A DNA stretch of 64,000 bases, from sequence record OQ708376.1; one strand, 5' to 3'. Positions 7,453 through 52,615 of this stretch are shown here, piece after piece. This DNA is from Escherichia phage vB_EcoM_CRJP21. The notes under the pieces were generated by a model that saw only the letters and a list, made by a program, of their open reading frames with translations, was not told the DNA's origin and searched no databases. Position numbers and translations under genes: made by a program. The first letter of the stretch is position 1; the number at the start of each line of letters is the position of its first letter.

Positions 7453-7459
7453 TTTTAAA

Positions 7460-7486
7460 GCTCGTCTATTGACGGGCTTTTCTTTT
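7460..7486 (+). terminator. intrinsic terminator
   Basis: gctcgtc-tatt-gacgggc hairpin (one G-U pair) plus ttttctttt. Confidence 0.6.
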
Positions 7487-7497
7487 ATGTGTATAAT
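7469..7497 (+). promoter_or_regulatory. sigma70-type early promoter
   Basis: TTGACG, 17-nt spacer, TATAAT; overlaps the terminator hairpin. Confidence 0.65.
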
Positions 7498-10753: not shown

Positions 10754-10921
10754 CATATACAAGTGTAATGGTACTAAAAATGCCATTACACTCAATAAAT
10801 ACTCAATATAAATTAACACAAGGATTAAGTATGGCACAACAAATTTTCACAGATATCCACACTACCGGAGTTATTAAATTTCAAAATAATTTTTCTGGTG
10901 CTACTGGTGTAGACATTAAAA

Positions 10922-11458
10922 ATGATGGTTTTAACATTGTCAGTACTCGGATCTATTGATGGTGAAGATAGTTCTCTTAGTGATTCTGTGATTGCATCAT
11001 TCGGAACTAATAAAAACAGTTCTTTTATTATATCTGGATGGACTGGAATGACTGATTCTGAAAATAATGTTAAGATAAAAGCTAAAGCTACTAACGAGAA
11101 TCATGAAACAGAATGGGTAACATTATATGATAGTGCAAGTAATAAGTTATATAATGTATTAAGTTCTAATAATATTTTAATTAATCCACTGTCGGGCAAT
11201 GCTGTTTTTAATATTAATTTATCTGATAGAAATACTACTATTTCGATTGGTGCGGCTCCTACTGAAGTTTATTCAATTACCATCCTATTAACACAACAAA
11301 CAGGTTCAAACCTAGTTAATTGGGGTTCTAATGTTAAATGGTCATATAACAGACCAGTTGTTCTTTCTTATGAAATTGGTGAAAAAGATATTATTTCATT
11401 AGAAACATATGATAAAGGAGTTACATGGTACGGTGCATTAATTAGAGCAGGAGTATGA
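10922..11458 (+). CDS. hypothetical protein, start uncertain (possible frameshifted continuation of 10831-10959)
   Basis: 178-aa ORF overlapping a 42-aa ORF in another frame. Confidence 0.35.
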   Translation: MMVLTLSVLGSIDGEDSSLSDSVIASFGTNKNSSFIISGWTGMTDSENNVKIKAKATNENHETEWVTLYDSASNKLYNVLSSNNILINPLSGNAVFNINLSDRNTTISIGAAPTEVYSITILLTQQTGSNLVNWGSNVKWSYNRPVVLSYEIGEKDIISLETYDKGVTWYGALIRAGV

Positions 11459-11459
11459 T

Positions 11460-14249
11460 ATGTTAAACAATAATATTGATAATATTGTACAACTTCTTTA
11501 TGGGCATCACAAATTTATTGAAAGAAATACTGGTGATACAATAGACCCAACAGTACAACATTATGTGGTGAATAATCAGGGTGTTTTGGCGAACAACCGT
11601 CATTTTATTAACTATTCTGCAATGGAAGGTCAACCAAACGGTGACGGGACAACAGAAGGTCAAAGTCTATTAATTTTGGGATACATTTATGCGTATCTGG
11701 CAACAAATGATCCAATGTTTTTAGATAAAGCCAAATGGTACTGGGATGCATATCATCAGTACTTTTATGCTGGACGTGAATTACCAGACCCACCAACTCC
11801 ACTTCAATGTAACTGGATAGTTAATGCCAAAGAACCGATTTTGGCTAACTGGCCTTTAGCTGATGATGGATGGCCTACACATGGTGGTTTCAAGGGTGTA
11901 GAATTTACATTTACAAATGGACAATGTAAAATACCACATGGTGCACCTTATTATGGTCAGTTCTTGGATAAAGTAACATTCGCATTCAAAGGTGCTTTAG
12001 CATGGAACCAAATAAATGCGTCAGTAAAAGCATTACTACCAGATGGTAGTGTTGATTGGGATACCCCTGGTGATCAATATGATGTTGACTGGATTATTGA
12101 TTTCATGGGTAGAAAAATCGACTGGGATGGTAATATTTTAGCAGAAGGTTTTGACGAATCTGAAAAAGGAACGGTTCAATTAAAAAATACAACAATTAAT
12201 GGTGTATATAAATTAAATTTTGCTAATCGTCAACCAGTAGAATATGGTGGTGTGATAATTCAACGAAATGAAATGCAACACAACCGACCACTTCATGTTC
12301 CAATTGATTTGGAATTTGCGGATAATGCATCAGATGCAGAATTGTGGTTTAGTGATGCTTCTTATTTGTTATATAAAATAACAAAAGAAAGAAAACATTA
12401 TTTGGGTTGGAAATGTTCATTACTCACATGCTATGCTTATGGTGATATCGACTCCAGAGATAAATTTTTCAGACAAAGTACAATTGTAACCACACCATTC
12501 ACTGATGGTATTTCCTATGAATATTTTTATCCAAGTGATGCTATCGCTAAGTTTGGTAGAAATTCTTTAGGATATATTACTATCAGGCAAGACCAAAGTG
12601 CACAAAGTACAATGGAACAACAAGCTATTTGGTTCAGGGTCAATGCTGATTCTAAATTACTTGTAGATTATGGTGGTGTATGTGATGATGGTAAGCCGTT
12701 ATCATTTAAACCAGTACTGGAATTGTCTAAAACAAAAAATGATCATGATGTAGTAAGATATCGTTGTGGATTACCAGAAAGTAAAGACCAAAATATCACA
12801 CATTCATTAACACCTTTAAGTGCATTTGTTAGAGAAAAGAAAGCAGATGGTTCCCCTTATATAATTGCTGATAGTAGAATAGTTGTTCCTTATGGTGCAG
12901 CTACGTCCGAAATGATATATAGTACTGATATATTAGTTACACGCCGAGATACCATTAATCAGTTAGTTTGTGGTGAAGATGATGGTGCTGTTATTGGATT
13001 TTGGCTATTAGCAACAAATAAGTCTGAAGTTAAATCTTTTACATATCGTTCATATGAAGATGATTACAATATAAGAATTGTAGATGATAATGGTTGGAGA
13101 TGGTGGTGGATGATTCCTGCAACACACGGGGAATGGACTACAATCACACTAAGTTCCGATACATTACGTTTATCTGGGTATCAGCCAAATCATCCAAGTT
13201 CTGACCCAAGACCAGATGCACCAGTATATAGTGAGCTAGAAGATATTACTATTTTACCTGATACAACCCCAGTAGATGGTGTTGCTGCAATAATTGATTG
13301 GTATTGTATTAATGACATTCCAGAATTATATACGGATGCTGACGGTGATGACTATACTATGACATTTTCAATAACAATTGCAGGTGAATCACCATATACT
13401 GCACAGTTAGGGGATTGTGTAATCAAAGATTATTTGTTAAACTCATTGCATTACACACCAGGAACAATACCATTTTCTAACATCACTGACCCGTATGCGA
13501 ACCAGTACTCAGGTTGGCGTGGTTTACCGTATCCAGGTTATCAATATCCAGTGATATATTGTTTTAAAGACCAGCCAGTAGATAACACACGCTTAGGAAA
13601 CATGTTAAGCTTTATGAAAGATTCCCAAACATGGTTTACTCAACAATTCGGTACTGTTGGTCCGTGTGCACAAGCATATGTTTGGAACCGCTGGGATAAC
13701 TTAAAATATGGTGAACCAGATACATTTACTATGCTACATTGGGGTGATCAAGCATGGAGTGGGTATGAACCACGTGCGTTCTTTGGGGCTGCCAGAGCAT
13801 GGCAAGAACTCGCAGAGAGAGGAATTGAACCACCAGCAGATCTTGTTGAATTTTGTGAGAATTGGATTCACTTTTTAATTCAATTTCAAAAAGATAATGA
13901 TGGTCGTTCACCAACAATCTTCAATAAAGATGGCACAGTTGAAGGTCCAGATTGGGACTTTACAGGTCATATGTGTGGGTTGTGGTTAGCTGGGGCTTGT
14001 GCTGCTGGATTGGCTGGATGTAAAATAGAAGGTCTAACAACACTCGCTGATAACTTAGTTCTCGAACTTCAAAAGAATTATGTTATTGTAAATCCAGGTT
14101 CCCCAATGAATGGTTCATGGAGTCCAGCAGTTAGAGAAGGTACTGATAATGGTATGTTTTTTGGTTTCTGGGCAGGTGAGATTATGCGTGGATTGGGGTT
14201 ATACTCAATGTACCGTTTAAACACACCAAATCGTTTCCGTGATTTATAA
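11460..14249 (+). CDS. large hypothetical protein (929 aa)
   Basis: long uninterrupted ORF, Trp/Tyr-rich (WYWDAY, WRWWWM); no motif I can assign. Confidence 0.6.
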   Translation: MLNNNIDNIVQLLYGHHKFIERNTGDTIDPTVQHYVVNNQGVLANNRHFINYSAMEGQPNGDGTTEGQSLLILGYIYAYLATNDPMFLDKAKWYWDAYHQYFYAGRELPDPPTPLQCNWIVNAKEPILANWPLADDGWPTHGGFKGVEFTFTNGQCKIPHGAPYYGQFLDKVTFAFKGALAWNQINASVKALLPDGSVDWDTPGDQYDVDWIIDFMGRKIDWDGNILAEGFDESEKGTVQLKNTTINGVYKLNFANRQPVEYGGVIIQRNEMQHNRPLHVPIDLEFADNASDAELWFSDASYLLYKITKERKHYLGWKCSLLTCYAYGDIDSRDKFFRQSTIVTTPFTDGISYEYFYPSDAIAKFGRNSLGYITIRQDQSAQSTMEQQAIWFRVNADSKLLVDYGGVCDDGKPLSFKPVLELSKTKNDHDVVRYRCGLPESKDQNITHSLTPLSAFVREKKADGSPYIIADSRIVVPYGAATSEMIYSTDILVTRRDTINQLVCGEDDGAVIGFWLLATNKSEVKSFTYRSYEDDYNIRIVDDNGWRWWWMIPATHGEWTTITLSSDTLRLSGYQPNHPSSDPRPDAPVYSELEDITILPDTTPVDGVAAIIDWYCINDIPELYTDADGDDYTMTFSITIAGESPYTAQLGDCVIKDYLLNSLHYTPGTIPFSNITDPYANQYSGWRGLPYPGYQYPVIYCFKDQPVDNTRLGNMLSFMKDSQTWFTQQFGTVGPCAQAYVWNRWDNLKYGEPDTFTMLHWGDQAWSGYEPRAFFGAARAWQELAERGIEPPADLVEFCENWIHFLIQFQKDNDGRSPTIFNKDGTVEGPDWDFTGHMCGLWLAGACAAGLAGCKIEGLTTLADNLVLELQKNYVIVNPGSPMNGSWSPAVREGTDNGMFFGFWAGEIMRGLGLYSMYRLNTPNRFRDL

Positions 14250-14250
14250 C

Positions 14251-14279
14251 TTGACATAGAAAAAGTAATTATGTATAAT
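14251..14279 (+). promoter_or_regulatory. sigma70-type early promoter
   Basis: TTGACA, 17-nt spacer, TATAAT. Confidence 0.7.
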
Positions 14280-14280
14280 T

Positions 14281-14311
14281 AGAGAACTTCATATGGAGTT
14301 CTCTTTTTTTA
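14281..14311 (+). terminator. intrinsic terminator hairpin immediately downstream of the promoter
   Basis: agagaact-8 nt loop-agttctct plus 7 T. Confidence 0.6.
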
Positions 14312-14323
14312 TAAGGTGATAAA

Positions 14324-14743
14324 ATGTTAAATGAACGTATTAAAAATGCACTACATGTATTGAATCAAGAAGTCAATTCTATTCATAAAAGTACTGACCG
14401 TTATAAAGTAATGCATGAAATCAAACAAGAATTGGAATCTATTAATAAGGGAGAGTGGTGGTATCTTCAGCCCGAATATCAAACTCGTGAATTAAACGAT
14501 GTTGAAAAAGAAATTGTCAAATTCATCACTACTCGTTATTGTGATACATCAGAGAATGATGTATCAGCGAACTTCAATCTTACTAAATTGGAAGTCGAAG
14601 AAAAATTCCATTTTGATTGGCTTGATTGGATTGAAATGGTAATGGAACTAGAAGAAAAATTCAATGTTGAAGTTGATGAAAAGTTCGAGAATAATGAAAC
14701 TAAGCTGTATGAACTAGTAGAACATATTCAAAAAATGTTGTAA
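14324..14743 (+). CDS. ACP-like protein lacking the phosphopantetheine-attachment serine
   Basis: C-terminal DWLDWIEMVMELEEKFNVEVDEKF resembles ACP helix II [16 protein letters not shown] with Trp in place of Ser. Confidence 0.4.
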   Translation: MLNERIKNALHVLNQEVNSIHKSTDRYKVMHEIKQELESINKGEWWYLQPEYQTRELNDVEKEIVKFITTRYCDTSENDVSANFNLTKLEVEEKFHFDWLDWIEMVMELEEKFNVEVDEKFENNETKLYELVEHIQKML

Positions 14744-14796
14744 AACTATACAATTGTATACTCTAAATAATATCATCAACTATAGGAGATATTATT

Positions 14797-15171
14797 ATGA
14801 GTATGTTAGAAATAATTGTTTCAAAAATTCTTATTCCATTTTGGAAACCAATTTCTTTTGTATTATTAATTGGCGGTTCAGCTTATGCTGGTTGGGAAGC
14901 TAATACTTATTACAGTGGATATCAACAAAGCATAGAGCAACAAATAGCTAAAAAAGTTGATACCGCCTTGGATAAAATGCAACAAGAAAATGCAAAAAAT
15001 TACCTTGAAACTAAAAAAATCATGGAAGATAATGCTAAAGTTATTGAAACAAAGGTTCCTTTTATTGTAGAACGTGAAGTTTATAAGAATGTATGTTTAG
15101 ATGAAGATGGTGTAAAAGTACTGAATGAACTAAAACAAAATTCTCAAGCTGCGAGGAATAAATTCAAATGA
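14797..15171 (+). CDS. i-spanin candidate (inner-membrane spanin)
   Basis: N-terminal TM segment then charged helical region; ATGA-coupled to a downstream lipoprotein ORF. Confidence 0.5.
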   Translation: MSMLEIIVSKILIPFWKPISFVLLIGGSAYAGWEANTYYSGYQQSIEQQIAKKVDTALDKMQQENAKNYLETKKIMEDNAKVIETKVPFIVEREVYKNVCLDEDGVKVLNELKQNSQAARNKFK

Positions 15172-15476
15172 AAAAATTATTAGTTCCGTTTATTTCTTTT
15201 TTAATTATAAGTGGATGTGCAGAACAAGTAAAACTACAATCCCCTACACCAATTAAACAAGAAATTCTGTTAGAAAGATGTGATGATGATACACCTCTAC
15301 CACAAAAAATTATGATTGACAAAAATGGTTTTAAAGGTTATGATGGTGCAGAAATTCTTAAAGTACTTACTCGTTGGGATGCAGTATACAACGAATGTGC
15401 TTTAAAACATGATGCATTAATTAAAACTATTCGTGATTTACAAGGTAAAGATATTAAAATCAATATCAAGGAATAA
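15168..15476 (+). CDS. o-spanin candidate (outer-membrane lipoprotein)
   Basis: signal peptide with lipobox LIISGC. Confidence 0.5.
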   Translation: MKKLLVPFISFLIISGCAEQVKLQSPTPIKQEILLERCDDDTPLPQKIMIDKNGFKGYDGAEILKVLTRWDAVYNECALKHDALIKTIRDLQGKDIKINIKE

Positions 15477-15477
15477 A

Positions 15478-16089
15478 ATGAACAAATATCATGTTTACTA
15501 TACGACCAAATTATCACTTCTTGACGAATTAAATCAACGAAGTACTAAGATGAAACGCTACACTTTAAATGGTATTACTTTTCGATATTTCCCACAAAAA
15601 GTTCTTACATTTATTAAGAATCCAAAATGCGTGGCATGTGGGATTGAAGCTACTGAAGTACGCATTGAACGTTCATTATGTTCTGATCCAGTATATGGTA
15701 AACCACATTTAAATGTATATGCTGTATGTGGTCTTTATGAAGTTTTAATGACAGTTGACCATAATCATCTGGCATCTAAGGGTGGACCTGATTTAGAGTC
15801 AAACTTTAATACTATGTGCTCCAGATGTAATCAACTACGTTCGAATAAAACTGAAACAGTTGATGAGTTTCTTGAGAAAGTTAAAGGTCGTAATCTTCTC
15901 CAAGAACATATGAATAATTTCTTTAATGTACAAAAAAAGAAAAATAACATTGACAAGTCGAAACTACTAGAAGAACGTAGGTTACGTCAAGAATTATGGG
16001 AAACTGATCATCTATGGCATGTTCGAGAGTTTGGTCGTCATATGAAAGCATTGAAAAAAGAACAGAAGAAATTGAATAAACATGATTGA
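15478..16089 (+). CDS. HNH endonuclease
   Basis: CVACG ... VDHNHLASKGG ... CSRCN motif set; ATG at 15478 right after o-spanin stop. Confidence 0.6.
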   Translation: MNKYHVYYTTKLSLLDELNQRSTKMKRYTLNGITFRYFPQKVLTFIKNPKCVACGIEATEVRIERSLCSDPVYGKPHLNVYAVCGLYEVLMTVDHNHLASKGGPDLESNFNTMCSRCNQLRSNKTETVDEFLEKVKGRNLLQEHMNNFFNVQKKKNNIDKSKLLEERRLRQELWETDHLWHVREFGRHMKALKKEQKKLNKHD

Positions 16090-16102
16090 TATGATATTAT
16101 AG

Positions 16103-16131
16103 GGACTTGAGTATTCAAGTCCTTTTTTTTT
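16103..16131 (+). terminator. intrinsic terminator
   Basis: ggacttga-gtat-tcaagtcc plus 9 T. Confidence 0.75.
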
Positions 16132-16142
16132 GGAGAAAATAT

Positions 16143-16415
16143 ATGAAAACAAAATTATTTCCACAACAAATAATGATTGAACTGTGCGAACATCAGTCTG
16201 GTGAAGTTGTTACAATCAGTGGTGATACGTATTCCATCATTTTAAATGAACAACAATTTGATCATACAAACCATACGAATGAACTGTATAATCTTATGTT
16301 TATGGACGATAAGAGTGAAAAATACTATCATTGTACATATGAACGATGTATAGATACAACACCATTTTGTAATGAAATGGTTGGTGTTAAATGTTATGAA
16401 TGTGAAGTGTTATGA
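16143..16415 (+). CDS. small Cys-rich protein, tandem paralog 1
   Basis: MKTK...ELCEH...YYHCTYER...C..C shared with next ORF. Confidence 0.55.
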   Translation: MKTKLFPQQIMIELCEHQSGEVVTISGDTYSIILNEQQFDHTNHTNELYNLMFMDDKSEKYYHCTYERCIDTTPFCNEMVGVKCYECEVL

Positions 16416-17190: not shown

Positions 17191-17210
17191 TGGGACATTA
17201 TATGTTCCAA

Positions 17211-17219
17211 TGATATAAT
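17211..17219 (+). promoter_or_regulatory. extended -10 promoter candidate
   Basis: TGaTATAAT at head of the ORF-poor region. Confidence 0.4.
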
Positions 17220-17227
17220 GTATATAG

Positions 17228-17716
17228 AAAATGACAACGGACATTGAAAAATGGACACTGAGAACCTACTTCTCTTGAAAATGTAAAGGATAGATGAGCT
17301 TTACCGTTGTAGCGAACAGCAGAAGAAACCTGTTAGAGTACTGGCATTTAAACAAACACGATGTAAGACCACGAATCACGGCGACACGGCTGTATAAAGA
17401 ACTCCGATAAGCATACAGAGAGTTCCTAGATAGATGTATAAGGTTCGCACCTTACCAGATTTGCTAAGGGAGTTTAAGAATAGCGGACGCAATTTTACAA
17501 GAAAGTTGCGTCCAAAATTTGAGAACAGGTACTACTTTGATCGAATAGAGTTAGTACTGAGTGCTGTTGATGAAAAGACCAGCGACCGTTGCATATGACT
17601 GCGATAGAGAGAAACCGAGCAACCCGCTTTCGCTCTCTAAATTTTGGTACAAGAAAGATCCGTCCAAAATTTGAGAAATTCGCAATTCGATAATATCCGA
17701 TGCCATCATCGTCAAG
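17228..17716 (+). ncRNA. candidate structured RNA and/or micro-ORF locus
   Basis: about 0.5 kb without any ORF of 60 codons or more, locally more G+C-rich, two 29-bp direct repeats each in a hairpin, ends at an intrinsic terminator. Confidence 0.3.
17497..17677 (+). repeat. two 29-bp direct repeats (27/29 identical) 152 bp apart
   Basis: acaagaaagttgcgtccaaaatttgagaa at 17497-17525 and acaagaaagatccgtccaaaatttgagaa at 17649-17677. Confidence 0.8.
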
Positions 17717-17740
17717 AGAGACTTAATTGTCTCTTTTTTA
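17717..17740 (+). terminator. intrinsic terminator
   Basis: agagac-ttaatt-gtctct plus 5 T. Confidence 0.6.
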
Positions 17741-17878
17741 TTATCTTCATTCCCCTGCGGGGGATGTAATAGTCCTCAACAAATCCCGTCAAGTTTTTAA
17801 AGTACATTATCATTTTCAGAAGGAACTAGTTTACGAAGTAAACGCAGTGACTTCTTGAGTTACGAGAGAACGAAGTGA

Positions 17879-18339: not shown

Positions 18340-18780
18340 ATGGAAGATATTAATGATTTACGACACGTAATGGACTTTATCGGAAGTACTGAAGAAGATA
18401 ATTCATATGATGAAGTACTATTAACTTTTATTGAAAATAGTTTGTTTTTGAGTTCTGCTGCACATAACTGGCACTTACAATGTCATTTTTATACAAAGCA
18501 TTTACAATTAGATGAACTATATAAAGAATTACCAGAATATGTAGACGCATTTGTTGAAGGTATCATGAATAATCGTGGTGCTTTACAAGTTGGGACTGGT
18601 AATAGTTATCGTTTTACACCAATTGAAGATTGTGTACCAATTCTTGAAGAATATGTTGAGCAATGCAGAGCAATTCATGATATGCTTGAAGAATCGGGTG
18701 ATTACGGCAGTGTAAACACATTAGAAGATATTATGAGTTTTGTTGAAGGCGTACTTTACAAACTTAAAGTTTTACAATAA
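18340..18780 (+). CDS. Dps/ferritin-like protein (tentative)
   Basis: AHNWHLQCHFYTKHLQLDELYKEL ... FVEGIMNNRG resembles the Dps helix A/B signature. Confidence 0.35.
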   Translation: MEDINDLRHVMDFIGSTEEDNSYDEVLLTFIENSLFLSSAAHNWHLQCHFYTKHLQLDELYKELPEYVDAFVEGIMNNRGALQVGTGNSYRFTPIEDCVPILEEYVEQCRAIHDMLEESGDYGSVNTLEDIMSFVEGVLYKLKVLQ

Positions 18781-18787
18781 ACTATAT

Positions 18788-18817
18788 GGAGAGTCGTTAT
18801 GACTCTCCTTTTCTTTT
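18788..18817 (+). terminator. intrinsic terminator
   Basis: ggagagtc-gttat-gactctcc plus ttttctttt. Confidence 0.7.
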
Positions 18818-18827
18818 GGAGAAAATA

Positions 18828-24604: not shown

Positions 24605-24937
24605 ATGCTAAAATTAAATATTCAAGGTAATGTTGATTTTACTACAGCAATTCAAGATGCAATTTACGATGGTGCTAAATGTCTTGAAAAGTTCCGTACT
24701 TCAACTGTAATGGATATTGAAGTTCATGTGAAGAAAGAGCATAAGTCTCAATACTCTGTGACTATAACATCAGGTAGTAAATCAGTTACTGCCGATGCAG
24801 CAGATTTATACAAAGCAATTGGTGATTCATTTGAAAAAATGGAAACTGTATTCAGTAAAGACAAAAGCATTAAATTACACCGCCGAAACCATCCAGAACA
24901 CCCAGTTCTTAATGATTTGACAGAAAACGAAGAGTAA
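24605..24937 (+). CDS. hpf: ribosome hibernation promoting factor (HPF/RaiA family)
   Basis: MLKLNIQGNVDFTTAIQDAI ... ADLYKAIGDSFEKME ... KDKSIK aligns with E. coli HPF along its length. Confidence 0.65.
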   Translation: MLKLNIQGNVDFTTAIQDAIYDGAKCLEKFRTSTVMDIEVHVKKEHKSQYSVTITSGSKSVTADAADLYKAIGDSFEKMETVFSKDKSIKLHRRNHPEHPVLNDLTENEE

Positions 24938-24948
24938 TATATACTAAA

Positions 24949-24976
24949 GGGACAGATTAATTCTGTCCCTTTTCTT
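24949..24976 (+). terminator. intrinsic terminator
   Basis: gggacaga-ttaat-tctgtccc plus ttttctt. Confidence 0.7.
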
Positions 24977-41721: not shown

Positions 41722-42702
41722 ATGGCTAAAAAAATTAATGAAGCACAAGTTAAAATCGATATCGCAGGTTTAGAATCTGATGATTTGGAAACTCTATCAC
41801 GTATGTTAGCTCTTGCTGGTCAAGCTGAACGTCAAGACCCAGTAGTTGCCGCTCCAGTACCATCTATGGGGTCTATGACTCCATCTCTTCCACCTATTGC
41901 TCCACTAGATCTCGATTCTATTGGTGCTGAAGAAGAAATTGGTGGAATTGAAACTTCAGTTGAAGACCCACTAGCAGCGGCAGTTGATGATCTTTCCGCT
42001 GATGTTGGTGATTTTGGTGCTGACACAGATGAAGTTAGTATGGATGCTGAATTTTCAGAACCAGGTGTAGAAGGTGAAGAAGATTTTTCTCTTGACCTTA
42101 GTGGTCAACCTCAACTAGAATCAGTTGAAGAAGACGATGAGGAAGAAGAAGAAATTATTGAAGAAGAATTCGATTTTAGTCGTATGCTATCTCTTGCTGG
42201 TATTAACGAAGAAGAAGACGAAGATTTTTCAGTAGAGGGTAATCCTGCTACCGATAAAGAAATGAAAGATACCCAATTTCTACCAGATCTAAGTATCTCT
42301 GAAGATGAAGAACCATCTAACAGTACTGATTATGGTCCATATGAAACAGAAGCTGATGCCGTTCGTGATGGTCAACTAAAGACTAATGGTGTTGAAGGTG
42401 ACCATTTTGTTGTAATTGCAAAAGGCAATCAATTTTATTGGAGACGTGTTGTAGATGAAGATCTTGACAATCGTCCAGAACCTGAGTATTATGATAATGA
42501 AGGGAACGAAAATCGTGTTCATAAATTTGAACCAAAATTCCCAGGCACTGCATTAGGAGATAACCCACTAAATGTTAATGAAAGTGAAGAAGATGATTCA
42601 CCTGAAGGTAACATTGACTTGGAAGATGATTCTGATGAAGAAGTAGAAGATATTTTTGAAAGTCTCCAAGAAAAATACAAGAAATTTTTAGGAGACAAAT
42701 AA
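41722..42702 (+). CDS. highly acidic repeat protein
   Basis: Asp/Glu-rich; SRMLALAGQ and SRMLSLAGINEEED repeats. Confidence 0.5.
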   Translation: MAKKINEAQVKIDIAGLESDDLETLSRMLALAGQAERQDPVVAAPVPSMGSMTPSLPPIAPLDLDSIGAEEEIGGIETSVEDPLAAAVDDLSADVGDFGADTDEVSMDAEFSEPGVEGEEDFSLDLSGQPQLESVEEDDEEEEEIIEEEFDFSRMLSLAGINEEEDEDFSVEGNPATDKEMKDTQFLPDLSISEDEEPSNSTDYGPYETEADAVRDGQLKTNGVEGDHFVVIAKGNQFYWRRVVDEDLDNRPEPEYYDNEGNENRVHKFEPKFPGTALGDNPLNVNESEEDDSPEGNIDLEDDSDEEVEDIFESLQEKYKKFLGDK

Positions 42703-42703
42703 T

Positions 42704-43099
42704 ATGCAATATAATTATCGTGAACTAGTTGAAGCGTTAGACGAAATTACCGGAAGAGATGAAGACGAAAGTTTTTCAGTTGAAGTTGAATCCGATGTTG
42801 TAGCAGTTGATGTTCTTAAGGATATTACCAAATGTCTTATTGATATTGTTGATAAGATTAAATCTGGTGAAGACCAAAAAGAAATTGTAGATAAACTACA
42901 AAAAGCCTGTGACATTTTGTCTGACATTCGATATAATGATGAAAGTACTGAAGTTGCTGATGAAGAAGTGTTGGAAGCCATTGCAGGTTGTTTTGGAACT
43001 GAAGGTATGGGACCATCAATTGACAAAGAAGGCGTACAACACTATAATGAGCCTGGTGCACCATCTTATGCTGCACGTCAAGGTTTTGTTGGAGACTAA
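42704..43099 (+). CDS. hypothetical acidic protein
   Basis: 131-aa ORF immediately after previous stop. Confidence 0.45.
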   Translation: MQYNYRELVEALDEITGRDEDESFSVEVESDVVAVDVLKDITKCLIDIVDKIKSGEDQKEIVDKLQKACDILSDIRYNDESTEVADEEVLEAIAGCFGTEGMGPSIDKEGVQHYNEPGAPSYAARQGFVGD

Positions 43100-43102
43100 T
43101 AT

Positions 43103-43483
43103 ATGTTTCCAGAACCATCACATAACAGTACTGAATATCAAAATAATGTACTTTCCAAAGTTAGGGAAGTACATGAATCAGATTCAGAAATAACAGACCG
43201 TATGCTTCTGATGTCAATTTTTGAAAATTTCAGAACTGGCGGTGGTTTACGTCTTAGCAAGTTTGGGTATGGAATTTGTAAAGAAAATAATCTTTATGAA
43301 TTTACCAAAATCCCCTTGCAAAGAGAATTTAAAAGTTCTATAATGTTTACATCACTTGACAGAATATGTACTTCACCTTATTATGTTGAAGGTCAGTACA
43401 TATATCTGACAGATGCAATGATAATAACTGAATTAACATTGTGTTGTGATGATTTTAAACAGTTATTTTCTATTCATATGTAA
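43103..43483 (+). CDS. hypothetical protein
   Basis: 126-aa ORF. Confidence 0.45.
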   Translation: MFPEPSHNSTEYQNNVLSKVREVHESDSEITDRMLLMSIFENFRTGGGLRLSKFGYGICKENNLYEFTKIPLQREFKSSIMFTSLDRICTSPYYVEGQYIYLTDAMIITELTLCCDDFKQLFSIHM

Positions 43484-43506
43484 GAAAAATGAATTAAAAA
43501 TAAATG

Positions 43507-43534
43507 TTGACAAGATAGAATGATGTGATACAAT
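43507..43534 (+). promoter_or_regulatory. sigma70-type promoter, copy 1 of tandem pair
   Basis: TTGACA, 16 nt, TACAAT. Confidence 0.6.
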
Positions 43535-43599
43535 AAGCATCAGACATAAAGTTTTCAAGCGACACAAGATGTGAGTTTGAAAAAAAAGAAAAAAAGTGA

Positions 43600-43627
43600 T
43601 TGACAAGTTGAAACGATGTGATATAAT
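43600..43627 (+). promoter_or_regulatory. sigma70-type promoter, copy 2 of tandem pair
   Basis: TTGACA, 16 nt, TATAAT; near-identical to the copy 93 bp upstream. Confidence 0.65.
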
Positions 43628-43796
43628 GTTCACATCAAGACAGCAAAGAGATTTACCTTTTAAACACACGGATGATTCATGAAGTAACAAAGGAACTGAT
43701 AAGTTAAATTATTTTAACACAGTTCCTTTACTTTTGCCCACGGATTGGCTATAATAGAAACTTAAACGATTTTATCCAACAAAAGGAAATATATAC

Positions 43797-45122: not shown

Positions 45123-45142
45123 TTAACAAAGAGTTGTTGACA

Positions 45143-45174
45143 AGAAGGATGCCTAATGGTATCCTTCTTTTATC
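45143..45174 (+). terminator. hairpin / weak terminator
   Basis: agaaggat-10 nt loop-atccttct plus interrupted T-run. Confidence 0.35.
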
Positions 45175-45196
45175 TTAACTAAACGAGGAAATATAC

Positions 45197-51247: not shown

Positions 51248-52615
51248 TTAAACTACAGAAACTCCACTCATTGAAGGTGGAACGATTTGTTCAGCAATTA
51301 ATAATAAATTAGTTACTGTAAACTTACCACCATGTGACATTAACGTAATAGGTGTTCCATTAGTTACTAGGTTACCATTTTCATCAACACTTAAAAATGT
51401 ATTAAATGAAATAGTATCAACCGTGATAGTTGGTGTTCTAACTTGATTAATATTATTAAATTGAGTATTTGTAAAATTAATAGCAAAACTCATATTAGAC
51501 GAACTAGTAGTCCATGTGCCGTATATATTTAATTTGAAATTTAGAGAGGAATTGAAATTATAAACATTTAACTTATTACTTGTTGTATTGAAGAAACTAT
51601 CTAGTGTTCCACTAGTGGGTGTGAATGATTTAAGTATTTGAATTAAATTTTGTTCAATTCCATCAGTGAATTGTATATTTAAGTTTGAATAATATAATTC
51701 TCTTTTTCTACGAATTAGGTTAGTAGTATTATTACCATTAACAAATAATCCAGTACTATCTGATGTTAATATATTACCAGAGGTATTACTGATTTTAGAT
51801 GAAATTACATTAGCGTCAATAGATATACCATTTCCCGCAGTATATGAGGATGGTCCAGTTGGAACATACAACCCATTTACGTCAGTTGTTAACGTATTTC
51901 CTGGAGTTGTGCTTATTTTAGTTGAAATTGTTTCTGAACTAATAGATATACCAGTACCACCAACGTAATTTATTCTTGTATTAGGTACAAATAATCCAGT
52001 ACTGTCAGTAGATAGTATATTACCAGAAGTAGAACTAATTTTAGTACTGATTACTTCACCACTGATAGAAACACCGGAACCAGCACTATAAGATACTGAA
52101 TTATCAGGCACAAATAAACCATTACTTGTAGAAGATAGTATGTTTTCTGATGTCGGGTCAACCTTCACACTTATTACATCATCACTAATAGTAATGCCAG
52201 TACCAGCATTGTAAGTTATCGAATTATCCGGTACGAATAGACCAGTACTATCAGTTGTAAGGATATTTCCTAAAGATGTGCTTATTTTTGATGATATAAT
52301 ATTATTATCTATTTTAATACTGTCACTACCTGTATATGTTACTGTATTATCAGGTACATATAAACCATTAGAATCATTACTAAGAATATTTCCTTGTGTT
52401 GAACTTATTTTTGTGGATATTAAATTAGAGGATATTGATATACCAGTTCCACCTTGATAGATAATAGTGTTATCTGGAACATATAAACCATCACTTTCAT
52501 GAATTAAAATATTTTTATTTTTAGTACTAATATCAGGCACTGGTATCTTGCCTATTAGTTCTCCGTCATAACTAATATCACCATTTACAATAATATCTGT
52601 TCTTATATTATACAT
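51248..52615 (-). CDS. tail fibre protein with about eight tandem 32-aa repeats
   Basis: repeated GLYVPDNT..Y..GTGISIS...ISTKIS.T.GNIL unit; ATG 52615 after aaggaaaaa RBS (track start 52639 is TTG). Confidence 0.6.
   Translation of the reverse strand: MYNIRTDIIVNGDISYDGELIGKIPVPDISTKNKNILIHESDGLYVPDNTIIYQGGTGISISSNLISTKISSTQGNILSNDSNGLYVPDNTVTYTGSDSIKIDNNIISSKISTSLGNILTTDSTGLFVPDNSITYNAGTGITISDDVISVKVDPTSENILSSTSNGLFVPDNSVSYSAGSGVSISGEVISTKISSTSGNILSTDSTGLFVPNTRINYVGGTGISISSETISTKISTTPGNTLTTDVNGLYVPTGPSSYTAGNGISIDANVISSKISNTSGNILTSDSTGLFVNGNNTTNLIRRKRELYYSNLNIQFTDGIEQNLIQILKSFTPTSGTLDSFFNTTSNKLNVYNFNSSLNFKLNIYGTWTTSSSNMSFAINFTNTQFNNINQVRTPTITVDTISFNTFLSVDENGNLVTNGTPITLMSHGGKFTVTNLLLIAEQIVPPSMSGVSVV

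What the first reader, a model, noticed from the sequence alone, without database searches (positions are those of the whole stretch)
14251..14311. Consensus promoter whose transcription start falls inside a terminator hairpin
Seen: TTGACA-17 nt-TATAAT at 14251-14279 is followed directly by an 8-bp stem hairpin and a 7-T run (14281-14311). Transcripts from this promoter would start within the 5' arm and so could not form the terminator, while read-through from the 929-aa gene would be stopped. Inference: a compact insulator that resets transcription for the downstream operon.
Basis: partly seen in the sequence, partly recalled or inferred. Interest (0 to 1): 0.4.

Follow-up and report, generated by a model that had tools for sequence, protein, structure and literature searches.

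The report
Phage promoter flush against a terminator
In this giant E. coli phage a perfect host-type promoter sits directly against a transcription terminator hairpin, so incoming transcripts probably stop while the promoter's own transcripts, which should start inside the hairpin, escape; this layout has already been described in T4-like phages.

Summary
TTGACA-17-TATAAT lies at 14251-14279. One base later comes a 10-bp hairpin (not 8-bp) at 14281-14304, followed by seven T's.

The window is an Asteriusvirus, a jumbo coliphage of the 121Q/PBECO4 group.

The promoter is not a chance match:
- 121Q has 32 perfect sigma-70 sites on the coding strand and none on the other.
- In relatives at about 76% identity the hexamers persist while the spacer is rewritten.

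The hairpin is conserved, and other annotators call it a terminator.

The same flush layout recurs at 16072-16131 and 24917-24975, and more weakly at 18755. It is conserved there too; in phage EJP2 an unrelated stem occupies the same position.

A start about 7 nt after the -10 would remove 4-5 nt of the 5' arm. Stability falls from -12.5 to about -3 kcal/mol, and the remaining stem is no longer next to the U-run.

This matches PeSLs (promoter-early stem-loops, Arbiol 2010), including their subclass with the stem-loop just downstream of the -10. It is a new member of a known kind, and interest is modest.

The parts
11460..14249 (+). Upstream 929-aa gene, annotated as tail fibre or tail protein in relatives. 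Its transcripts run into the hairpin.
   Evidence: ORF list. 121Q gene 509 is annotated 'tail protein'. No Pfam hit.
14251..14256 (+). -35 hexamer TTGACA. It starts 1 nt after the stop codon.
   Evidence: Invariant in 7 aligned relatives. In Turkey5 it overlaps the TGA stop codon.
14257..14273 (+). 17-nt promoter spacer, not conserved.
   Evidence: Almost entirely different in A4, and 16 nt long and different in Turkey5, while both hexamers persist.
14274..14279 (+). -10 hexamer TATAAT.
   Evidence: The pattern TAnAnT is invariant across relatives: TAAACT in A4, TATAGT in ph0011.
14285..14287 (+). Predicted transcription start (A14286 is 7 nt after the -10), inside the 5' arm. Inferred, not mapped.
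   Evidence: Position follows from the general rule for sigma-70 start-site choice (own knowledge).
14281..14290 (+). 5' arm of the terminator hairpin, AGAGAACTTC.
   Evidence: Arms are nearly invariant across relatives and variation sits in the loop.
14291..14294 (+). Loop ATAT.
   Evidence: The loop is ATGA in A4 and AATAT in Turkey5.
14295..14304 (+). 3' arm GGAGTTCTCT.
   Evidence: In A4 the arm reads GAGGTTCTCT, which swaps the U-A and U-G pairs but keeps all pairing.
14304..14310 (+). T7 tract. It is the terminator's U-run, and it becomes a U-rich 5' leader in the promoter's own transcripts.
   Evidence: G17 annotates this site as an ARNOLD terminator at -11.1.
14313..14326 (+). Shine-Dalgarno AAGGTGA and the ATG of the first downstream gene.
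14324..16089 (+). Downstream four-gene unit: a 139-aa ACP-like protein, a 124-aa Rz-like spanin, a 102-aa Rz1/LysC-like protein and a 218-aa HNH endonuclease.
   Evidence: with annotations.
16072..16131 (+). Sister module closing that unit: TTGAAT-17-TGaTATTAT, flush with the hairpin AGGGACTTGA..TCAAGTCCTT and a T9 run.
   Evidence: Conserved in all 8 relatives examined. Folds at -12.6 kcal/mol in full and -0.6 from 16107.
24917..24976 (+). Sister module: TTGACA-17-TATACT, flush with the hairpin AAAGGGACAGA..TCTGTCCCTTT and a T-run, located after the HPF/RaiA gene.
   Evidence: Conserved in relatives; EJP2 has an unrelated stem at the same position.
18755..18815 (+). Weaker candidate with the same layout: TTTACA-17-TAAACT, then 4 nt, then the hairpin GGAGAGTCG..TGACTCTCC and a T-run.
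   Evidence: The promoter match is only 9/12. Not followed up in relatives.
7457..7497 (+). Composite module in another register. The terminator hairpin carries the -35 (TTGACG at 7469), and TATAAT lies at 7492-7497.
45137..45175 (+). Composite module in another register. The hairpin 45144-45167 lies between and over the -35 (TTGACA) and the -10 (TATCCT).

Best explanation
This is a composite early-promoter and terminator cassette of the PeSL type.

The host sigma-70 RNA polymerase should recognise TTGACA-17-TATAAT. It would then start about 7 nt after the -10, at A14286 or A14285, which is inside the 5' arm of the hairpin.

Transcripts arriving from the upstream fibre gene contain both arms. 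They fold the 10-bp hairpin next to the U7 tract and terminate at about 14308-14311.

The promoter's own transcripts lack the first 4-5 nt of the 5' arm. They keep at most a 5-6-bp, -2.6 to -3.5 kcal/mol stem that sits 4-5 nt away from the U-run. They therefore read on into the four downstream genes (ACP-like, two spanin-like, HNH) until the next module of the same design at 16101.

What is shown here:
- the sequence anatomy;
- selection on the hexamers and on the hairpin;
- a recurrent and conserved flush geometry.

What is inferred:
- the start position;
- termination efficiency;
- timing, with the promoter used early and the upstream fibre gene transcribed late.
For: - Anatomy.
- Identity: the window is an Asteriusvirus infecting E. 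coli, so the E. coli sigma-70 consensus is the relevant one. Relatives are reported to use RpoD-like early promoters (PMC5259590).
- Strand bias: 32 perfect sites on the gene strand against 0 on the other in 121Q.
- Footprint: the hexamers are kept and the spacer is replaced in A4 and Turkey5.
- Hairpin: z = -5 against shuffles, and much weaker when the 5' end is truncated. Annotated as a terminator by ARNOLD in G17 and in UE-S1.
- Geometry: a gap of 0-1 nt at four 121Q sites, p about 3e-4. It is conserved at three window sites across lineages, and EJP2 has a replaced stem at the same place.
- Joint loss: the promoter and hairpin are lost together in fEgEco12 and WPEC3.
[quoted passage not shown] A PeSL stem-loop terminated about as well as the rrnB T1 terminator, and PeSL promoters were very strong in lacZ fusions (PMC2839356).
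Against: - No 5' or 3' end data exist for any Asteriusvirus in the literature searched.
- If transcription started at G14284, a 7-bp stem of -7.5 kcal/mol would remain, so some self-attenuation cannot be excluded.
- fEgEco12 and WPEC3 do without the module altogether, so it is dispensable.
- The spanin-like genes downstream would usually be thought of as late functions, which fits awkwardly with an early promoter.
- The counts behind the gap statistic are small: 4 of 9 pairs.
Confidence: 0.7

Rival explanations
1. Promoter-proximal attenuator or short RNA. Transcription starts far enough upstream (at or before G14284) that a usable hairpin still forms. Much of the promoter's own output would then stop at about +20-27, giving a tiny RNA or a regulated read-through switch.
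For: - RNA starting at 14284 keeps a 7-bp stem of -7.5 kcal/mol.
- Terminators immediately downstream of promoters, producing prematurely terminated units, were mapped in Pseudomonas phages (PMC10914365).
Against: - Only 1 nt separates the -10 from the stem, and starts 2-5 nt after a -10 are unusual.
- Even the 7-bp stem ends 3 nt before the U-run.
- A perfect-consensus promoter conserved only to make a roughly 25-nt RNA, with three different stem sequences at three sites, is unparsimonious.
- No antiterminator alternative structure is evident.
Confidence: 0.1
2. Only the terminator matters. The promoter match is silent during infection or conserved for another reason, and the downstream genes are expressed by read-through or from other promoters.
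For: - fEgEco12 and WPEC3 express the same downstream genes with a 10-nt gap and no promoter.
- At the sister site, A4 has lost its -35 but keeps the hairpin.
Against: - The hexamers are conserved while the spacer is rewritten.
- The 32:0 strand asymmetry of perfect sites.
- If the terminator were efficient and there were no promoter, the four downstream genes would be poorly expressed.
- The hexamers lie outside the coding sequence here.
Confidence: 0.1
3. Chance juxtaposition forced by genome compaction. A real promoter and a real terminator happen to be squeezed into a 74-nt gap, with no selection on their relative register.
For: - The intergenic gap is completely filled.
- Composite modules occur in several other registers in the same genome.
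Against: - When the promoter comes first, the gap is 0-1 nt in 4 cases and never 2-15 nt.
- The register is kept across lineages at three sites, even when the stem sequence is replaced in EJP2.
- A promoter placed 8-40 nt upstream would terminate its own transcripts, so the register is functionally constrained.
Confidence: 0.07
4. The inverted repeat is a DNA operator for a dimeric phage repressor that shuts off the early promoter by binding over +1.
For: An inverted repeat covering the start site is the classic position for an operator.
Against: - The three modules have unrelated stem sequences.
- EJP2 has yet another stem.
- All of them are followed by T-runs on the transcribed strand only.
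- Variation falls in the loop and the arms keep their pairing.
Confidence: 0.03

Closest known systems
PeSLs (promoter-early stem-loops) of T4-like phages RB49/phi1, T4/PST and KVP40/nt-1 (Arbiol et al. 2010, PMC2839356; Comeau et al. 2014, PMC4122927)
   Same: - A near-consensus sigma-70 early promoter fused to a stem-loop terminator, in a short gap between a stop codon and the next Shine-Dalgarno/ATG.
- Five registers are described, including the stem-loop just downstream of the -10. Those authors propose the same function: stop upstream transcription and restart it.
[quoted passage not shown]
- Gains and losses lie nearby among close relatives.
   Different: - The host phage is a Rak2-like jumbo Asteriusvirus, not a member of the T4 subfamily.
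- This copy is single-copy, with no roughly 100-bp similarity to other cassettes, so it cannot serve as a recombination repeat.
- The region upstream of the -35 is not especially AT-rich (65%, the genome mean).
- The adjacent fibre-cassette indel used a microhomology inside the fibre gene, not the cassette itself.
- The PeSL papers, in the sections read here, do not spell out that the start falls inside the 5' arm, or that the flush register is stereotyped.
T4 gene e (lysozyme) and I-TevI leaders: a late promoter inside the 5' strand of an inhibitory RNA hairpin (review PMC3014915)
   Same: The logic is the same. Long transcripts from upstream contain both strands and fold. Transcripts from the embedded promoter lack the 5' strand and escape.
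   Different: - In T4 the hairpin hides the ribosome-binding site, so the control is translational. Here the hairpin is an intrinsic terminator, so the control is transcriptional.
- The T4 promoters are late (TATAAATA). This one is sigma-70 type.
IS10/IS50 protection from outside read-through transcription (own knowledge: Davis, Simons and Kleckner 1985; Krebs and Reznikoff 1986)
   Same: The element's own transcript starts inside an inverted repeat, so only externally initiated RNA forms the structure.
   Different: The structure blocks translation of transposase rather than terminating transcription, and the setting is a transposon rather than a phage operon boundary.
5'-UTR premature terminators and attenuators found by Term-seq or ONT-cappable-seq (PMC10914365)
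   Same: A terminator lies within a few tens of nucleotides of a promoter.
   Different: There the whole hairpin is downstream of the start, so the promoter's own RNA is terminated. Here the start is predicted to lie inside the hairpin.

Membership tests
PeSL (promoter-early stem-loop) cassette | Near-consensus sigma-70 promoter (TTGACA-N17-TATAAT) | tested here: met
   12/12 match at 14251-14279. The hexamers are conserved in relatives.
PeSL (promoter-early stem-loop) cassette | Stable stem-loop overlapping or adjoining the promoter in one of the five described registers | tested here: met
   A -12.5 kcal/mol hairpin starts 1 nt after the -10. [quoted passage not shown]
PeSL (promoter-early stem-loop) cassette | Bounded by the upstream stop codon and by the Shine-Dalgarno sequence plus start codon of the next gene | tested here: met
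   TAA at 14247-14249, AAGGTGA at 14313-14319 and ATG at 14324.
PeSL (promoter-early stem-loop) cassette | AT-rich (UP-like) region upstream of the -35 | tested here: not met
   The 40 nt upstream are coding sequence and 65% A+T, which equals the genome mean.
PeSL (promoter-early stem-loop) cassette | Repeated motif with sequence conservation over about 100 bp among copies, allowing homologous recombination and mini-circles | tested here: not met
   - blastn-short of 14240-14325 against 121Q and the window finds only the orthologous copy and short chance matches.
- A different cassette in 121Q (GGTTGACTTCGGTCAGCC-T-run-TATAAT, at least 7 copies) does meet this feature.
PeSL (promoter-early stem-loop) cassette | Association with insertions, deletions or replacements between close relatives | tested here: inconclusive
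   - The fibre cassette just upstream is absent in slurp01, UE-S1 and ph0011, and the whole module is absent in fEgEco12 and WPEC3.
- However, the fibre deletion junction is a CACAnCAAAT microhomology 30 nt upstream, not the cassette itself.
PeSL (promoter-early stem-loop) cassette | Demonstrated promoter and terminator activity | not testable with these tools
   This needs reporter fusions or end mapping. Only ARNOLD-type predictions exist in related records.
Intrinsic (Rho-independent) terminator | Stem with G-C pairs (4 of 10 here), short loop, and a U-tract immediately following | tested here: met
   - 10 bp with 4 G-C pairs, a 4-nt loop and a T7 run directly after the stem.
- The arms are conserved and the loop varies across relatives.
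Sigma-70 promoter | Transcription start 6-9 nt downstream of the -10 | not testable with these tools
   A14286 is predicted from spacing only. No dRNA-seq data were found.

The most novel reading that the evidence does not exclude
The flush register, with the -10 hexamer 0-2 nt from the stem base, may be a selected and stereotyped design. It would make an intrinsic terminator 'blind' to one specific promoter while it stops all upstream transcription.

The same nucleotides would be reused three times:
- as the promoter's discriminator and start region;
- as the terminator's 5' arm;
- after truncation, as a short 5'-terminal stem plus a U-rich leader for the downstream mRNA.

Together with the repeated cassette that carries the -35 inside the hairpin, this would extend PeSL-type regulatory cassettes to Rak2-like jumbo phages. 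It would also give a simple positional rule for where a promoter may lie upstream of a terminator.
Probability: 0.4. Interest if true: 0.4.

Novelty: new member of a known kind. Interest (0 to 1): 0.3.

Why it matters
- It defines transcription-unit boundaries in a poorly annotated 350-kb phage. The stretch 14286 to about 16130 looks like a four-gene unit bounded at both ends by modules of the same design.
- It extends the PeSL concept beyond T4-like phages.
- It gives a clear, testable positional rule: a terminator tolerates a promoter flush against it, but not one 8-40 nt upstream. That rule is useful for annotation and for compact synthetic designs.
- It does not reveal a new mechanism.

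Tried and rejected
- Rfam scans of 13.5-17 kb (E-value mode) and of the whole window (gathering thresholds) found nothing relevant, so no known RNA family explains the hairpin.
- The module is not a repeated element: it has no paralogous copies.
- The stem shares a GAGAAC..GTTCTC core with two other 121Q terminators and with a family of 5'-UTR hairpins. The excess is small (12 against 5.3 expected) and is dominated by that unrelated family, so this lead was dropped.
- The operator hypothesis was rejected because the stems at the three sites, and in EJP2, are unrelated.
- PeSL-mediated recombination does not explain the fibre-cassette indel, because the junction is a microhomology inside the coding sequence.
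- Literature searches for Asteriusvirus transcript maps, and for explicit reports of starts inside terminator stems, found nothing specific.
- A T4-type late promoter (TATAAATA) was sought to define what reads into the terminator. There are only two exact copies in the window. An ATATAAATT at about 10804-10812, upstream of the fibre genes, is a candidate only.

Full report
**What is there**

Reading 14000-14600 confirms the anatomy:
- The 929-aa ORF stops at 14247-14249.
- TTGACA is at 14251-14256, followed by a 17-nt spacer and TATAAT at 14274-14279.
- After one base (T14280) comes AGAGAACTTC-ATAT-GGAGTTCTCT at 14281-14304.
- T's run from 14304 to 14310.
- AAGGTGA is at 14313-14319 and the ATG at 14324.

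The consensus scan ranks this as the only 12/12 promoter match between 8 and 22 kb and lists the hairpin as terminator-like. The 74-nt intergenic gap is completely occupied by promoter, terminator and ribosome-binding site.

**Where the window comes from**

The region is 96-98% identical to Escherichia phages 121Q, PBECO4, G17, phAPEC6 and others of the genus Asteriusvirus, which are roughly 350-kb jumbo myoviruses. The host is E. coli, so the E. coli sigma-70 consensus is the relevant one. A paper on the related phage CBB reports RpoD-like early promoters, a T4-like late motif and a gp55-like late sigma factor in this group (PMC5259590). 121Q is annotated with T4-like core genes and a late sigma factor.

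**Is it more than chance?**

I assembled the complete 121Q genome.
- It has 32 perfect 12/12 sigma-70 sites on the strand that carries most of the genes, and none on the other strand. Base composition predicts about 0.5 per strand.
- The hairpin folds at -12.5 kcal/mol against -3.7 ± 1.8 for shuffled sequences, z = -5.0.

Orthologous intergenic regions give a clean phylogenetic footprint:
- In A4 (about 76% identity) the -35 is unchanged, the 17-nt spacer is almost entirely different, the -10 is TAAACT, and the hairpin is retained with a different loop.
- In Turkey5 the -35 overlaps the TGA stop codon, the spacer is 16 nt and different, the -10 is TATAAT, and the hairpin follows with no gap.
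- The records for G17 and UE-S1 annotate the hairpin as a terminator.
- In fEgEco12 and WPEC3 the promoter and hairpin are absent together, leaving a 10-nt gap.

**The layout recurs**

Two more modules in the window have the -10 flush against a hairpin that carries a T-run:
- 16072-16131: TTGAAT-17-TGaTATTAT.
- 24917-24976: TTGACA-17-TATACT.

A weaker candidate lies at 18755.

Both are conserved in relatives. At the 24917 site, phage EJP2 (about 71% identity) carries an unrelated stem (AAGGAAGCC/GGCTTCCTT) starting 2 nt after its -10. The position is therefore kept while the sequence is not.

Of the 13 intergenic plus-strand terminators in the window:
- 4 have a promoter flush upstream;
- 3 overlap a promoter in another register (7457, 31247, 45144);
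- 6 have no promoter.

Genome-wide in 121Q, promoters (at least 10/12) that lie upstream of a terminator leave gaps of 0, 1, 1 and 1 nt, then 16, 28, 34, 70 and 77 nt. The binomial p is 2.6e-4 and the Poisson p against a genome-uniform expectation is 1.9e-4. The counts are small, but the clustering and the cross-lineage conservation agree with each other.

**How it most likely works**

Sigma-70 polymerase normally starts about 7 nt after the -10 (own knowledge). Here that is A14286, the sixth base of the 5' arm.

| RNA starts at | Fold (kcal/mol) |
|---|---|
| 14281 (full hairpin) | -12.5 |
| 14284 | -7.5 |
| 14285 | -3.5 |
| 14286 | -2.6 |
| 14287 | -1.4 |

(All values.)

After truncation the surviving stem ends 4-5 nt before the U-run, whereas an intrinsic terminator needs the stem to abut it. 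The sister sites behave the same way: -16.8 falls to -3.9, and -12.6 falls to -0.6.

So transcripts coming from the fibre gene should terminate, while the promoter's own transcripts should continue into the ACP-like, spanin-like and HNH genes (annotations). They would run until the next module at 16101. That makes roughly 14286-16130 a four-gene unit bounded by two modules of the same design.

The start position, the termination efficiency and the timing are inferences.

One nuance on the word 'insulator': incoming polymerase crosses the promoter before it terminates. The design therefore sets RNA ends but does not protect the promoter from occlusion.

**Comparison with what is known**

This is the PeSL architecture (promoter-early stem-loop) of T4-like phages. 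PeSLs combine strong sigma-70-like promoters with stem-loops that act as terminators.
- The proposed role is to terminate or attenuate transcription from upstream.
- Reporter assays showed that one stem-loop terminates about as well as the rrnB T1 terminator and that the promoters are very strong (PMC2839356; PMC4122927).

Membership is good on anatomy but incomplete:
- This copy is single-copy, not a repeated recombinogenic cassette of about 100 bp.
- It lacks a distinct AT-rich upstream region.
- The neighbouring fibre-cassette indel used a microhomology inside the fibre gene rather than the cassette.

Mechanistically, the closest experimentally mapped analogue is the T4 gene e and I-TevI arrangement. 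There a late promoter lies in the 5' strand of an RNA hairpin, and only upstream-initiated RNA folds (PMC3014915). The output there is translational rather than transcriptional.

In the searched library, PeSL appears in only three phage papers. None of those read concerns Asteriusvirus, and the third is a cyanophage study.

**Rivals**

- *Self-attenuation or a short RNA.* Terminators just downstream of promoters are known in Pseudomonas phages. This would need an atypically early start site.
- *A silent promoter.* This conflicts with the footprint and the strand asymmetry.
- *Mere compaction.* This conflicts with the gap distribution and its conservation.
- *An operator.* This conflicts with the unrelated stems.

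**Verdict**

It is a new member of a known kind and of modest interest. The added value here is showing that the flush register is stereotyped and conserved, and that PeSL-like cassettes occur in a jumbo phage lineage.

Noticed in passing
L010/L011 (121Q 98693-98727, 102120-102150, 104782-104813, 109271-109308, 110555-110590, 112720-112758, 144922-144953): A repeated composite cassette, GG(G)TTGACTTCGGTCAGCC(C)-T-run-TATAAT. It is a UUCG-loop terminator hairpin whose 5' arm carries the -35, with the T-run serving as the promoter spacer. There are at least 7 near-identical copies in the small-ORF region. This is the best candidate for a true recombinogenic PeSL family in Asteriusvirus.
   Followed up: partly
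L011/L012 (121Q 145492, 147886, 149132, 149491, 152348, 153537; also 107510): Perfect TTGACA-16-TATAAT promoters followed 12-15 nt later by a G+C-rich hairpin (for example GGGGAGAATAGTTCTCCCC) with no T-run. This is a repeated early-promoter module with a 5'-UTR stem-loop, possibly an mRNA stabiliser or a protein-binding site.
   Followed up: no
window 10839-14219 (compare L008, L004, L005): The small ORF plus the 178-aa and 929-aa fibre genes are absent from slurp01, UE-S1 and ph0011. The junction falls at an imperfect 10-nt microhomology (CACAaCAAAT / CACAcCAAAT), leaving the last 30 nt or so of the fibre gene in front of the promoter.
   Followed up: partly
window 43484-43796 (and 42464-43384): A dense cluster of strong sigma-70-like sites lies upstream of the 441-aa ATPase gene. 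It includes two tandem, similar promoters with A-rich upstream tracts (43507 TTGACA-16-TACAAT; 43600 TTGACA-16-TATAAT) in a non-coding gap of about 310 nt, and a 12/12 site at 43020 inside a coding region.
   Followed up: no
window, whole: The T4 late-promoter octamer TATAAATA occurs only twice (1369, 6039), against 11.2 ± 3.3 in shuffles. This suggests avoidance, or a different late consensus. The copy at 1369 lies just downstream of the terminator at 1340-1354.
   Followed up: no
L010 (121Q 52055-52101): A 12/12 promoter whose -10 lies in the loop-proximal part of a 16-bp hairpin of -20.9 kcal/mol, followed by a T-run. This is yet another promoter/terminator register.
   Followed up: no
window 17191-17878: A stretch of about 690 nt with no long plus-strand ORF. 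It contains promoter-like sites on both strands and a terminator-like hairpin at 17714-17737. G17 and 121Q annotate only a 51-aa minus-strand ORF in the corresponding stretch.
   Followed up: no
window 16123-16145 and 18806-18827: Two modules share a 22-nt stretch, 21 of 22 bases identical, spanning the T-run and the Shine-Dalgarno sequence (CCTTTT..TTTGGAGAAAATA). GGAG Shine-Dalgarno sequences follow several of these terminators, which recalls the RegB target sites of T4 early mRNAs.
   Followed up: no
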